From positions 808,667 to 872,666 of the forward strand of contig CAVQMM010000001.1 in assembly GCA_963713615.1 (NCBI GenBank): a stretch of 64,000 nt of DNA, given 5' to 3'. Below are positions 58,761 through 61,470 of the stretch, one piece after another; positions within the stretch are counted from its first letter, which is position 1; every line of letters starts with the position of its first letter. The notes under the pieces are model-generated. The model had not been told where the DNA came from. It did not search any database and worked only from the letters and a program-made list of their open reading frames with translations. Origin of the DNA: an uncultured Chlamydiae bacterium (GTDB lineage: Bacteria; Chlamydiota; Chlamydiia; Chlamydiales; JAJFMA01). Position numbers and translations under genes: made by a program.

Positions 58761-58853
58761 CGGCGCGCAGCGCTTTGGAGTGCGGTCGCTTGCGACGTAA
58801 GCGTCAATTGAAGCCACCTTTTTCGTAATTCCGCGAGGTTCTAAGTTTTCTCC

Positions 58854-59435
58854 ATGACCCTAACCATGGAGATACTAATGGATTTCAAAAGGAAGCGTTC
58901 TGAGTGGGCTCGACGCATAGACCAATGGATGGCGAGCGGTCAGAGTGGCCGCAGGTGGTGCCTAGAGAACAATATAAGCTACCAGCAGCTCTTGTACTGG
59001 TACCAACGCTTTAAAGTTAGCCCGCCCGACCACATTTCCTCGACGGGTTGGATAGACATTACCCTGCCCGAGCTCAAGCTTTCGCTTGATCAGAAGAGCG
59101 TCTATCTAACCCTAAAGTCTGCGAGCAAAACTCTGAGGTCGTCATATCAGAAAAACAAGGGTGTCTTTCTCTATCAAGAGCCGATCGATATGCGAAAGGG
59201 ATTTGAGTGCTTGAGCAATCTTGTTGACAGTTCGTTCTCGGGCGAATTTACCTGCGGGGCCTACTTCGTTTTTTTAAATCGTCGTAGAAATCTAGTGAAG
59301 GTCTTTTACTGGGATGGTAATGGTCATGCCGTCTGGTACAAGCGACTTGAAAAAGGAAGTTTTCGCAATGGAAGCATTCCAGATTCCGCTATCGATCGTC
59401 GAGAATTTCTAATGTTGTTGGAGAGTAGTCATTGA
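58854..59435 (+). CDS. IS66 accessory protein (Orf1 HTH region fused/adjacent to Orf2 TnpB-like domain)
   Basis: N-terminal RRWCLENNISYQQLLYWYQRF helix-turn-helix; C-terminal PIDMRKGFECLSNLV...FVFLNRRRNLVKVFYWDGNGHAVWYKRLEKGSF typical of IS66 Orf2. Confidence 0.75.
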   Translation: MTLTMEILMDFKRKRSEWARRIDQWMASGQSGRRWCLENNISYQQLLYWYQRFKVSPPDHISSTGWIDITLPELKLSLDQKSVYLTLKSASKTLRSSYQKNKGVFLYQEPIDMRKGFECLSNLVDSSFSGEFTCGAYFVFLNRRRNLVKVFYWDGNGHAVWYKRLEKGSFRNGSIPDSAIDRREFLMLLESSH

Positions 59436-59517
59436 GCCTAAAATCCTAAAAACAATGTGCATTTTATTAGATAAAATACTTGATAATAGAGGGGGTCTGT
59501 GATATGATTTAGAGCAT

Positions 59518-61062
59518 ATGGAAACCTCAACACTATCACTAGAACAGCTTCAATCGGAAATTTATTCCCTGCGAAATGAGAATAGCTTTCTCAAGGAGCA
59601 GCTTGAATGGTTTAGGCGTCAGATTTTTGGGAAACGTTCGGAAAAAGTAGTCGACGATGGCGGTCAACAACTCTACCTGGAAGGTTTCGAAAATCTTGGT
59701 TCCGAAGAGCAAAAAGAGACAATAAATGTGCCTGCTCATCGACGGGTTAAGCAGGGGCGCAATGGCAAAGATAAAATTACGCTTCCAGACAATATTCCCG
59801 TTCAACGCTGTATTTTAGATTTGCCAGAGGATCAAAAAGTTTGCCCTACAACGGGTGAAGCCCTCGTCAAAATTGGCGAAGAAGTCACTCACAAAATAGC
59901 GCATACGCCAGGTAGCTACTACGTCAAGGAGCTAGTACGTCCCAAGTATGCATGTAGAGCACATAGTGAAGAGGGCGTTTTTATCGCAGATTTACCAGAT
60001 AGCATTTTTCCTCGCTGTCAAGCCGATGAGAGTCTTTTAGCCAGTGTGATCGTGAAAAAATTCGCCGATCACCTTCCTTTATTTCGTCAATCGGAAATCT
60101 TAGCTCGCGAGGGCATTCTCATCAGCCGACAAATACTTTGCAAGTGGGTAATGCGCTGTGGATATGCCTTAAAGGCGCTATATGAAGAAATGATTGCTCG
60201 CGTGCTCAGCAGCAACAATGTTTTTGTGGACGAATCTCCTGTGGACATGCTTGTCCCTGGTAAGGGAAAGGTGCACCAGGCTTTTATGTGGGTGATCGTT
60301 GGAGGGCAGGAAAAAAATCCGCCTTATCGAGTCTATCATTTTCGCACGGACCGCTGCCACAAGCATGCTGTGGAAATACTAGCTGGATATAAAGGTGTTG
60401 TCCATTCGGATAAATATGGAGCCTATGAAGCACTGGCTAATAAGAAGCAATTCACTTGGTGTCCATGCTGGAGTCACATTCGGCGCAAGTTTTTCGACGC
60501 TGTAGGTGGCGATAAAAAATTTGTTAGCTGGGTACTGCGCAAGATAAAATATCTATTTATGTTAGAGAGAGTTGCTTGGGAACGTTCTCCAGAGGAACGT
60601 CTGCGGATAAGACAAGAGAAAGAAGCTCCAATAATAGATGAGCTGACTGCACGCATCAAGGACCGGCTGGTTAATGGCAAGGCTCTTCCCAAATCGAATC
60701 TAAGGGAGGCTCTAGGCTATTATTGCAGCTTAATTCCCCATCTGAAAAACTACACCCAACATGCATTTGCGCGTCTCGACAACAATGTAGCGGAGCGAGC
60801 GATACGCCCTCTAGCTATTGGCCGCAAGAACTGGATGTTTATTGGAAGCGAGGAGGGTGGGGAAGCTTCCGCCGTACTGCTAAGCCTGGTACAGACCTGC
60901 CGCGCGATAGGAGTCAACCCCCACGAATACCTAGAGGATGTGATGAGGCGCCTGCCAGCCCATAATTCTCAAAAACTTCACGAGCTTCTGCCCGACGCTT
61001 GGGCTGCCGCCAGGCGACAAGCAAAGGCCTCATCCACCTCATCAGCCCCCACTGCCGAATAA
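59518..61062 (+). CDS. IS66-family transposase TnpC
   Basis: N-terminal leucine-zipper region, then the zinc-ribbon region (CPTTGEAL...KYACRAHSEEG) and the DDE core with the conserved DNNVAERAIRPLAIGRKNWMFIGSEEGG motif. Confidence 0.85.
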   Translation: METSTLSLEQLQSEIYSLRNENSFLKEQLEWFRRQIFGKRSEKVVDDGGQQLYLEGFENLGSEEQKETINVPAHRRVKQGRNGKDKITLPDNIPVQRCILDLPEDQKVCPTTGEALVKIGEEVTHKIAHTPGSYYVKELVRPKYACRAHSEEGVFIADLPDSIFPRCQADESLLASVIVKKFADHLPLFRQSEILAREGILISRQILCKWVMRCGYALKALYEEMIARVLSSNNVFVDESPVDMLVPGKGKVHQAFMWVIVGGQEKNPPYRVYHFRTDRCHKHAVEILAGYKGVVHSDKYGAYEALANKKQFTWCPCWSHIRRKFFDAVGGDKKFVSWVLRKIKYLFMLERVAWERSPEERLRIRQEKEAPIIDELTARIKDRLVNGKALPKSNLREALGYYCSLIPHLKNYTQHAFARLDNNVAERAIRPLAIGRKNWMFIGSEEGGEASAVLLSLVQTCRAIGVNPHEYLEDVMRRLPAHNSQKLHELLPDAWAAARRQAKASSTSSAPTAE

Positions 61063-61091
61063 ATCGCCAGATGGCCTCAATTGACGCTTAC

Positions 61092-61470
61092 CTTGCGACC
61101 GCTTTGGGTTCCTTGCGACGGTCGTGTGCAACGGCATCACTATAATTCCCTAAGGGTAAAATAGTTAGTACATGCAGCCTTCGACGAATCCATACAATGC
61201 CGTTTAGCATTGCCGTCCCAAGGAACGAAAAGCGGTCGCAAGCGACCGCACTCCAAAGCGCTGCGCGCCGAGATACGATTGTGAAGTCCTAAGTCATTGA
61301 GATATAAGCTCAAAAGACCTGTTAGGTTGAGGCCTATGTGGCGATGCCATGGCCTGTTGCCATATCGACCCTTCGGGCCTAGGAAGGGAAAGACTCTCTC
61401 TTCACCGGCATCCGATTTTCAGGAAATTGACTTCGGAAAATCGGACTTTTGCAATTACCTCAATTAGTCC
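61092..61470. repeat. right part of IS-disrupted family-B element (61092-61272) plus inverted family-E arm (61273-61470)
   Basis: Continues the B element interrupted at 58796. It is followed by ...GGTTGAGGCCTATGTGGCGATGCCATGGCCTGTTGCCATATCGACCCTTCGGGCC...TTGCAATTACCTCA, as at 38550-38830. Confidence 0.7.

What the first reader, a model, noticed from the sequence alone, without database searches (positions are those of the whole stretch)
58761..61272. Intact IS66 element with fresh 8-bp target duplication inserted into a family-B MITE nested inside a family-E foldback
The element shows perfect 19-bp terminal inverted repeats (GTAAGCGTCAATTGARGCC), intact TnpC with the DDE region, and identical 8-bp direct repeats (CTTGCGAC). 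These argue for a recent transposition event. The target is the palindromic B repeat, which is itself embedded in the E repeat, giving a three-level nest (E contains B contains IS66). This suggests the repeats are preferred or at least tolerated landing pads, and that at least one autonomous IS family is still active in this genome.
Basis: seen in the sequence. Interest (0 to 1): 0.5.

Follow-up and report, generated by a model that had tools for sequence, protein, structure and literature searches.

The report
Hairpin-targeting IS66 insertion sequence
This is an intact, recently moved IS66-family jumping gene in an environmental chlamydia, and its copies all land in one 8-base spot of a repeated hairpin, a site preference I did not find reported for this family.

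Summary
A 2,295-bp IS66-family element lies at 58797-61091. Its terminal inverted repeats match at 18 of 19 bases, so they are not perfect. It is flanked by an 8-bp target duplication, CTTGCGAC. It carries a full-length DDE transposase, TnpC, and an unusual in-frame TnpA-TnpB fusion.

The uninterrupted repeat at 38259-38604 reproduces the empty site exactly, with a single octamer at 38512-38519. That inner module is inverted relative to the outer arms.

The host is an environmental member of the Chlamydiota with a 3.9-Mb contig. That contig encodes at least six copies more than 99% identical; two are broken.

The new result concerns the target. Contigs from 20 other metagenome samples carry the same element at 99.7-100% nucleotide identity. 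Every readable junction, 25 in total, lies at the same octamer (CTYGCRAC) of the B-repeat hairpin. The junctions occur in both orientations and in two B subfamilies, each duplicating its own octamer variant. This implies at least four independent transpositions into one register. The repeat is therefore a preferred target, not merely a tolerated one.

Repeat-hairpin targeting is documented for IS3, IS110, IS4, IS256 and IS5 elements. I found no report of it for IS66. The source genome was withheld, so no genome-wide census was possible. Flank pairs from short-read contigs may be chimeric.

The parts
58797..61091 (+). Complete IS66-family insertion sequence (2,295 bp)
   Evidence: It is bounded by the only two matches to the inverted-repeat pattern in the window. 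It is absent from the otherwise identical empty site at 38512-38519. Copies in other samples are 99.7-100% identical.
58789..58796 (+). Left copy of the 8-bp target duplication, CTTGCGAC
   Evidence: The octamer occurs once at the empty site.
58797..58815 (+). Left terminal inverted repeat, GTAAGCGTCAATTGAAGCC
   Evidence: It starts with GTAA, which I recall as typical of IS66.
58854..59435 (+). tnpAB: in-frame fusion of TnpA (aa 14-74) and TnpB (aa 104-190), 193 aa
   Evidence: NCBIfam IS66_ISAeme5_TnpA (56 bits, cut-off 28) and IS66_TnpB (83 bits, cut-off 50) both hit this one ORF. Pfam TnpB_IS66 also hits it. Relatives carry separate tnpA and tnpB.
59518..61062 (+). tnpC: DDE transposase, 514 aa, intact
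   Evidence: Pfam finds four IS66 domains at full length. NCBIfam transpos_IS66 scores 356 bits against a cut-off of 180. D238, D298 and E426 are invariant.
61073..61091 (-). Right terminal inverted repeat (reverse complement GTAAGCGTCAATTGAGGCC)
61092..61099 (+). Right copy of the 8-bp target duplication, CTTGCGAC
58749..58796 (+). Outer part of the interrupted B-foldback arm, ending in the target octamer
   Evidence: It is identical to 38512-38559 (reverse complement) and to 38329-38376.
61100..61282 (+). Remainder of the interrupted B foldback (inner part and intact second arm; an unoccupied octamer lies at 61235-61242 on the minus strand)
58406..58748 (.). Left part of the enclosing composite repeat ('E' copy 2)
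   Evidence: Direct repeat of 37952-38251 at 96%. The 148-nt unit is at 58579-58726.
61283..61474 (.). Right part of the enclosing composite repeat ('E' copy 2)
   Evidence: 61339-61474 is a direct repeat of 38719-38854 at 93%.
38512..38519 (-). Empty target site in the uninterrupted composite (GTCGCAAG on the plus strand, CTTGCGAC on the minus strand)
   Evidence: It is the overlap of inverted-repeat pairs I1 and I7.
38329..38559 (.). Uninterrupted B foldback (231 nt) with two terminator-like hairpins, each holding the octamer
   Evidence: Fold of -108.5 kcal/mol, z = -18. Hairpins at 38362-38379 (+) and 38509-38526 (-).

Best explanation
This is an autonomous IS66-family insertion sequence. 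I found no named match for it. Its nearest TnpC outside its own cluster is 72% identical.

**Transposition (inferred from family knowledge).** The DDE transposase TnpC moves the element and makes an 8-bp staggered cut. A fused TnpA-TnpB accessory protein is encoded upstream.

**Target choice (shown by junctions).** The element does not land at random. It selects one octamer, CTYGCRAC, in the small GC-rich hairpin present in each arm of the host's B foldback repeat. The hairpin has a 7-bp stem, GCGGTCG/CGACCGC, and a CTTG loop. The duplicated 8 bp are the loop plus the first four bases of the 3' stem arm. The element can insert there in either orientation.

**The window copy.** It is one such recent insertion. 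The B repeat it hit sits inside a larger composite palindromic repeat in an intergenic region, so the insertion disrupts no gene.

**How the site is recognised (inferred).** I think a protein reads the sequence of the B arm, either the N-terminal or zinc-finger part of TnpC or the TnpA helix-turn-helix. Hairpin shape alone seems less likely, because the B' target variants that are also used fold weakly.
For: **Anatomy.** Searches show the inverted repeats, duplication and intact ORFs.

**Empty site.** It is reconstructed to the base.

**Activity.**
- The source 3.9-Mb contig encodes at least four full-length and two broken TnpC variants more than 99% identical.
- Copies in 20 other samples are 99.7-100% identical in nucleotides.

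**Targeting.** All 25 readable junctions in those contigs lie at the same octamer of a B-family arm. They fall into these classes:
1. IRL next to the outer arm, IRR next to the 'G-type' inner arm (the window).
2. IRL next to the outer arm, IRR next to the 'T-type' inner arm (L002, L003).
3. IRL next to the inner arm (L085, L087, L088, L089, L100, L103, L105), with IRR-outer junctions in L086 and L104. This orientation is the opposite of the window's.
4. A B' variant with GTTGCGAG at a left junction (L004) and at a right junction (L103).
5. A second B' variant, GTCGCGAG (L001, L091). L091 carries the distinct TnpC variant P0002.

Recombination inside the IS or a flip of the B interior cannot change which flank adjoins IRL. 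Classes 1, 3, 4 and 5 therefore need at least four separate insertions.

**Chance.** The window holds 13 such sites in 64 kb, one of them occupied.

**Not a clade trait.** A 61%-identical relative in another Chlamydiae genome inserts at AGTGTTTT and AAAACATC in ordinary DNA.

**Structure versus sequence.** The B' targets fold weakly, at -5.7 and -3.9 kcal/mol against -8.6 for the main hairpin.
Against: - The source genome was withheld, so I could not list every copy.
- Short-read assemblies extend past a multicopy IS only where most copies share flanks. Minority copies in unique DNA would be invisible.
- Left and right flanks on one short contig may come from different copies. The matching GTTGCGAG duplication is inferred from two contigs.
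- All samples probably hold one species, so the junctions may represent only the 6-10 fixed copies of one lineage.
- No experiment shows specificity, and no recognition determinant has been identified.
- The 7 of 9 resemblance between the inverted-repeat tip (GTAAGCGTC) and the target (GCAAGCGAC) is not significant. My estimate is p about 0.08 within 30 nt on either strand.
Confidence: 0.8

Rival explanations
1. Insertion is random and selection filters the survivors. The IS has no site preference, and only copies that landed in neutral repeat DNA persist.
For: The insertion lies in non-coding repeat DNA between two genes. Repeats are abundant in the window. I recall IS66 elements as being described without marked target specificity. 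The Paracoccus survey lists only 8-bp duplications.
Against: Neutrality would allow any of hundreds of positions in the B and E repeats and other intergenic DNA. Yet every junction is at the same 8 bp, in both orientations and in two B subfamilies. A second copy of the octamer 20 nt further into the arm (61112-61119) was never seen occupied.
Confidence: 0.07
2. The IS spreads passively. It inserted once into a B repeat and was then copied to other B repeats. This happened by mobilisation of the B+IS composite, or by homologous recombination or gene conversion between B arms.
For: B arms share a 48-54-bp perfect stem. The B interior is found flipped relative to its flanks in L002 and L003. The inner module is at least 99% identical between two loci while the outer arms are 93-97% identical, which suggests ongoing exchange. 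The L002/L003 class (same IRL-outer orientation as the window, other type of inner arm) could arise from the window's class this way.
Against: Conversion or flipping cannot place IRL next to the inner arm when the donor has it next to the outer arm; the opposite-orientation junctions (IRL beside the inner arm) differ from the window in exactly this way. The B' insertions carry their own octamer variants directly against the IS ends (GTTGCGAG at both a left and a right junction; GTCGCGAG), as transposition predicts.
Confidence: 0.1
3. The junction diversity is an assembly artefact, produced by chimeric de Bruijn paths through repeats.
For: The contigs are 1-3 kb short-read assemblies. Some flank pairs do not match, for example L086 and L085.
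Against: Each junction is itself spanned by k-mers (k = 141 for the contigs named k141_). IRL and IRR share only 15 bases before they diverge, too few to cause a mis-join. The same junction types recur in independent samples and assemblers from ENA, JGI and Logan. The window copy comes from a 3.9-Mb contig.
Confidence: 0.03

Closest known systems
IS66 family (IS66, IS679, ISRm14, ISPpa5/ISPpa7; accessory TnpA and TnpB plus the DDE transposase TnpC)
   Same: It has TnpC with the LZ, zinc-finger, DDE and C-terminal domains, TnpB and TnpA homologues, terminal inverted repeats starting GTAAGCG, and an 8-bp target duplication. The Paracoccus IS66 members also make 8-bp duplications.
   Different: At 2,295 bp it is shorter than the 2.7-2.8-kb Paracoccus examples. 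tnpA and tnpB are fused into one 193-aa ORF. All seen copies sit in one octamer of a host repeat. The nearest TnpC outside its own cluster is 72% identical.
Insertion sequences that target REP/BIME palindromes: IS1397 and ISKpn1 (IS3 family), IS621, ISPa11, ISPpu9/10 and ISRm19 (IS110 family), ISRm22 (IS4 family)
   Same: All or most copies lie at a fixed position in a short, repeated, extragenic palindrome, which gives a harmless landing site. ISRm22 also makes a fixed-length duplication within the palindrome (PMC1525189).
   Different: The transposase family differs. That survey lists IS3, IS110, IS4, IS256 and IS5, but not IS66. Here the cut is off-centre in the hairpin (loop plus half of the 3' arm), and the palindrome is part of a 231-nt foldback rather than a free-standing REP.
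Closest sequenced relatives: IS66 elements in uncultured Chlamydiae, Parachlamydiales and Verrucomicrobia genomes (L005-L009) and metagenome contigs L107 and L108
   Same: TnpC is 58-72% identical. The inverted-repeat tip GTAAGCGTCAA is nearly the same. L006 and L007 show 8-bp duplications.
   Different: tnpA and tnpB are separate genes. The targets AGTGTTTT and AAAACATC are not in a palindromic repeat.

Membership tests
IS66 family | DDE transposase of the TnpC type (Pfam DDE_Tnp_IS66, NCBIfam transpos_IS66) | tested here: met
   PF03050 matches at full length, E 1.5e-83. NF033517 scores 356 bits against a cut-off of 180. D238, D298 and E426 are invariant.
IS66 family | Accessory protein TnpB (IS66 Orf2) | tested here: met
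   PF05717 scores 88 bits. NF033819 scores 83 bits against a cut-off of 50.
IS66 family | Accessory protein TnpA encoded as a separate upstream ORF | tested here: inconclusive
   A TnpA domain is present (NF047593, 56 bits against a cut-off of 28), but it is fused in frame to TnpB in all copies seen. It is separate in relatives.
IS66 family | Terminal inverted repeats of about 20-30 bp beginning 5'-GTAA | tested here: met
   GTAAGCGTCAATTGARGCC, matching at 18 of 19 and at 21 of 23 when extended. That GTAA is the family start is from my own knowledge.
IS66 family | 8-bp target duplication | tested here: met
   CTTGCGAC on both sides, and once at the empty site.
Repeat-palindrome-targeting insertion sequences (functional class) | All or most copies inserted at one fixed position in a repeated palindromic element | tested here: met
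   All 25 readable junctions plus the window copy lie at the same octamer of B-family arms, implying at least four independent events. No whole-genome census was possible.
Repeat-palindrome-targeting insertion sequences (functional class) | Specificity demonstrated by transposition assay into a target with or without the palindrome | not testable with these tools
   This requires an experiment.
MITE (for the B repeat) | Short, non-coding, multicopy, with terminal inverted repeats | tested here: met
   B is a 231-nt foldback with a 54-bp perfect stem. Thirteen arms carry the hairpin in 64 kb.
MITE (for the B repeat) | Flanking target duplications and a cognate transposase | tested here: inconclusive
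   I saw no consistent duplication at B ends. I found no transposase for B among the 20 larger ORFs I scanned. The B ends are unrelated to the IS66 inverted repeats.

The most novel reading that the evidence does not exclude
This is the first IS66-family element with true site-specific target selection. It homes to one octamer in a host repeat hairpin, and the specificity is conferred by its unusual TnpA-TnpB fusion protein. If so, it would give an experimental handle on what IS66 TnpA and TnpB do and on how IS66 transposases choose targets. No structure of a relative of either protein is in the PDB.
Probability: 0.15. Interest if true: 0.65.

Novelty: new variant of a known kind. Interest (0 to 1): 0.45.

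Why it matters
- **A gap in knowledge.** IS66 is a large, widespread family. No structure of a relative of TnpC or TnpAB is in the PDB. From my own knowledge, its mechanism and the roles of TnpA and TnpB are largely unknown.
- **A useful model.** A member with a defined 8-bp target in a 20-30-nt context is a convenient substrate for biochemistry.
- **Safe-site strategy.** It extends landing in repeated palindromes to a sixth IS family beyond the five listed in PMC1525189.
- **Host biology.** An environmental chlamydia with an unusually large 3.9-Mb contig carries an active IS that is channelled into nested palindromic repeats. This helps explain how such thickets grow without destroying genes.

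Tried and rejected
- **Source genome.** The GTDB genome scan with TnpC did not contain it. The best hits were 58-62% identical, so no genome-wide census was possible. The 3.9-Mb contig is listed, but its DNA was never returned.
- **Metagenome scan.** The scan with the 19-nt inverted repeat returned six loci. One duplicated L004. The other five are unrelated IS66 elements that share only the repeat tip.
- **Literature.** Searches for IS66 target specificity found no report either way. They yielded only general IS66 features and beta-clamp-binding motifs in IS66 TnpB and TnpC.
- **Rfam.** It finds no RNA family in the window, so the repeats are not a known RNA.
- **A transposase for the B or E repeats.** I found none among the 20 larger ORFs I scanned.
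- **Target mimics an IS end.** The match is 7 of 9, p about 0.08. I kept it only as a lead.
- **Hairpin shape as the recognised feature.** I rate this less likely because the B' targets fold weakly.
- **Double occupancy of one B element.** L087 reads IRR end, 151-bp B interior, IRL. The 151-bp interior is longer than k = 141, so this path may be chimeric and I do not claim it.
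Full report
**1. What is in the sequence**

The element spans 58797-61091 (2,295 bp). IRL is GTAAGCGTCAATTGAAGCC at 58797-58815. IRR, read as its reverse complement, is GTAAGCGTCAATTGAGGCC at 61073-61091. These are the only two matches to the pattern in 64 kb, even allowing three mismatches, against 0.01 expected by chance. They match at 18 of 19 bases, and at 21 of 23 when extended. 'Perfect' therefore overstates it.

CTTGCGAC abuts both ends, at 58789-58796 and 61092-61099.

Two ORFs fill the element:
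- **ORF1 (58854-59435, 193 aa)** carries an IS66 TnpA domain at aa 14-74 and an IS66 TnpB domain at aa 104-190. Both score above the curated cut-offs. It is an in-frame TnpA-TnpB fusion.
- **ORF2 (59518-61062, 514 aa)** is a full-length TnpC with all four IS66 Pfam domains.

An alignment with homologues down to 32% identity keeps D238, D298 and E426 invariant. The C317/H320/R322/R323 motif is also invariant. My assignment of these residues to the DDE triad rests on my own knowledge of the family motifs.

**2. The empty site**

The repeat finder gives two inverted-repeat pairs:
- 38259-38519 equals the reverse complement of 61092-61352 (261 nt, about 100%).
- 38512-38604 equals the reverse complement of 58704-58796 (93 nt, 99%).

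The two matches overlap by exactly 8 bp, at 38512-38519. The uninterrupted locus therefore holds the octamer once, and the CTTGCGAC pair is a true target duplication.

An unexpected detail is that this inner module is inverted relative to the outer arms. The outer arms are direct repeats: 37952-38251 against 58406-58705 at 96%, and 38719-38854 against 61339-61474 at 93%. My map of the two composite copies is:

| Segment | Copy 1 | Copy 2 |
|---|---|---|
| A | 37952-38124 | 58406-58578 |
| R (148-nt unit) | 38125-38272 | 58579-58726 |
| X (copy 1) / Y' (copy 2) | 38273-38328 | 58727-58748 |
| B | 38329-38559 | 58749-58796, then the IS, then 61092-61282 |
| Y (copy 1) / X' (copy 2) | 38560-38581 | 61283-61338 |
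| second R | 38582-38729 | absent |
| C | 38730-38854 | 61339-61474 |

B alone folds as a 231-nt hairpin with a 54-bp perfect outer stem (-108.5 kcal/mol, z = -18). 'E contains B contains IS' is thus correct in outline. The composite has more layers than that, and I could not show that it was built by successive transpositions.

**3. Host and copy number**

A CPAF equivalog at 53213-54955 scores 695 bits against a cut-off of 250, which places the window in the Chlamydiota.

The exact TnpC sequence is on a 3,904,876-bp NCBI contig. I take this to be the source, but its DNA was never returned. That contig also encodes:
- TnpC variants P0002, P0006 and P0007, which differ from the window protein by 1-3 residues;
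- a frameshifted copy, P0005;
- a split copy, P0009 plus P0010.

That makes at least six copies more than 99% identical, two of them broken. The genome is not among the GTDB representatives, where the best TnpC matches are 58-62% identical. The nearest protein outside its own 90% cluster is 72% identical.

**4. Other copies and their targets**

Exact-protein look-ups returned 1-3-kb contigs from 20 other samples across ENA, JGI and Logan. The IS in them is 99.7-100% identical to the window copy.

Short-read assembly through a 2.3-kb repeat can join flanks from different copies. I therefore treat each junction separately. All 25 readable junctions lie in a B-family arm, at the same octamer. I grouped them by features that recombination cannot change:
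1. IRL beside the outer arm, IRR beside the 'G-type' inner arm (CGCTTTGGGTTCC). This is the window.
2. IRL beside the outer arm, IRR beside the 'T-type' inner arm (CGCTTTTCGTTCC). Seen in L002 and L003.
3. IRL beside the inner arm, seen in L085, L087, L088, L089, L100, L103 and L105. L103 matches 38321-38519 at 100% and then runs straight into IRL. The matching IRR-outer junctions are in L086 and L104. This orientation is the opposite of the window's.
4. A B' subfamily arm with GTTGCGAG at a left junction (L004) and at a right junction (L103).
5. Another B' arm with GTCGCGAG (L001, L091). L091 carries the TnpC variant P0002.

Crossing-over within the IS, or a flip of the B interior between its perfect arms, leaves the sequence beside IRL unchanged. 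Such a flip is visible in L002 and L003. Classes 1, 3, 4 and 5 therefore need at least four separate insertions. Class 2 could be an arm-to-arm conversion of class 1.

The target consensus is GTCG-CTYGCRAC-CGC. The window holds 12 empty sites of this kind and one occupied.

**5. The target itself**

The octamer lies in a 7-bp-stem, 4-nt-loop hairpin, GCGGTCG-CTTG-CGACCGC, followed by a T-rich tail. The simple scan calls it terminator-like on each strand of B. Its folding energy is -8.6 kcal/mol. The duplicated bases are the loop plus the first four bases of the 3' arm, so the staggered cut is off-centre.

The B' targets that were also used fold weakly, at -5.7 and -3.9 kcal/mol. The second is no better than shuffled sequence. 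I therefore favour sequence reading over shape reading, though only tentatively.

A second CTTGCGAC lies 20 nt further into the arm, at 61112-61119. It was never seen occupied.

The inverted-repeat tip GTAAGCGTC resembles GCAAGCGAC in the target at 7 of 9 positions. By my estimate this is not significant (p about 0.08).

**6. Relatives**

Two copies of a 61%-identical element in another Chlamydiae genome have clean 8-bp duplications, AGTGTTTT and AAAACATC, in ordinary DNA. That element has separate, overlapping tnpA and tnpB genes. L107 (70% identity) has a separate tnpB of 111 aa. L108 (68% identity) has a 102-aa ORF directly upstream of a separate 110-aa tnpB. Both the fusion and the hairpin targeting are therefore particular to this element among the relatives I examined. 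I have no evidence that the two features are linked.

**7. Comparison with what is known**

The element meets the IS66 membership features I tested. The one exception is that TnpA is not a separate ORF. See the membership table.

Functionally it behaves like the insertion sequences that target REP/BIME palindromes. The 2006 survey of those lists members of IS3, IS110, IS4, IS256 and IS5, and does not mention IS66 (PMC1525189). My other literature searches found no report of IS66 targeting. The held library is incomplete and ISfinder was not available, so absence of a report is not proof.

IS66 TnpB and TnpC have been reported to carry beta-clamp-binding motifs (PMC3971601). This hints at a link to replication forks that I could not test. 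Neither TnpC nor TnpAB has a relative of solved structure.

**8. Verdict**

The added result is that the repeat is a preferred target, hit at single-octamer precision.
- That this is an intact, recently active IS66 member: confidence about 0.95.
- That it has real target-site specificity: confidence about 0.8.
- That the TnpA-TnpB fusion or another named determinant explains the specificity: speculative.

A new IS in a repeat is ordinary. An IS66 with a defined target is of moderate interest to people who work on transposition.

Noticed in passing
window 38259-38604 versus 58704-58796 plus 61092-61352: The roughly 346-bp inner module (X-B-Y, bounded by the 17-nt inverted repeats CATAGGCCTCAACCTAA / TTAGGTTGAGGCCTATG) is at least 99% identical between the two composite repeats. 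It lies in opposite orientation relative to outer arms that are only 93-97% identical. This suggests recent flipping, conversion or independent mobility of the inner module.
   Followed up: partly
window 38125-38272 and 38582-38729; 58579-58726: A 148-nt unit with its own 21-nt terminal inverted repeats (GGCATAGCCATGGTATATGCC) occurs twice, in direct orientation, in composite copy 1. It occurs only once in copy 2. This is another layer of the nest.
   Followed up: no
window 58387-58410 and 61458-61481: Composite copy 2 sits at the centre of a further 25-nt palindrome (ATGGRCGAACTGGACTAATT|AATTAGTCCAGTTCGYCCAT) that occurs nowhere else in the window. Copy 1 is flanked by ATAT on each side and copy 2 by AATT, which may be a 4-bp palindromic target duplication of the outer repeat.
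   Followed up: partly
window 58854-59435: tnpA and tnpB are fused in frame into one 193-aa ORF in every copy seen (P0011-P0017). Three relatives at 61-70% TnpC identity keep tnpB as a separate 110-111-aa ORF, and two of them show a separate upstream tnpA-sized ORF.
   Followed up: partly
L092, L094-L097 (metagenome contigs, including a TARA ocean scaffold): The exact 19-nt tip GTAAGCGTCAATTGAAGCC also ends otherwise unrelated elements in other environments. The extreme end of the inverted repeat is therefore conserved far beyond this IS.
   Followed up: no
L087 1-200: The contig reads: end of IRR, then the 151-bp B interior from one octamer to the other, then IRL. This would mean one B element carries an IS in each arm in direct orientation. 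It could equally be a chimeric assembly path.
   Followed up: partly
window 38863-39142, 42987-43132, 44324-44458: The two ends of the 538-aa ORF at 42986-44602 (no Pfam or NCBIfam hit) are repeated contiguously at 38863-39142, at 92-100% identity, next to composite copy 1. The 208-aa ORF at 38835-39461 therefore looks like an internally deleted copy of that gene.
   Followed up: no
window 2992-3301, 5283-5516, 46595-46808, 55986-56079: A different foldback repeat family (TTTTAGGAGCAACACGGATGCACACGGAT...) is present. One copy has 116-nt arms that are 100% complementary, at 2999-3114 and 3186-3301.
   Followed up: no
window 35308-36135 (-): A 275-aa ORF holds only fragments of the phosphoketolase XFP_N and XFP_C domains. 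It is likely a gene remnant.
   Followed up: no
L108 1714-1730 and 4180-4196; L108 589-1494: A 68%-identical IS66 relative is flanked by a 17-bp direct repeat (CCATTTATTCGAGCAGT) instead of 8 bp. It lies about 240 bp downstream of a Y1 (IS200/RAYT-like) transposase gene.
   Followed up: no
window 38362-38379 (+) and 38509-38526 (-): Each B foldback carries two inward-facing terminator-like hairpins with T-rich tails, so B could act as a bidirectional terminator. An IS insertion splits one of them.
   Followed up: partly
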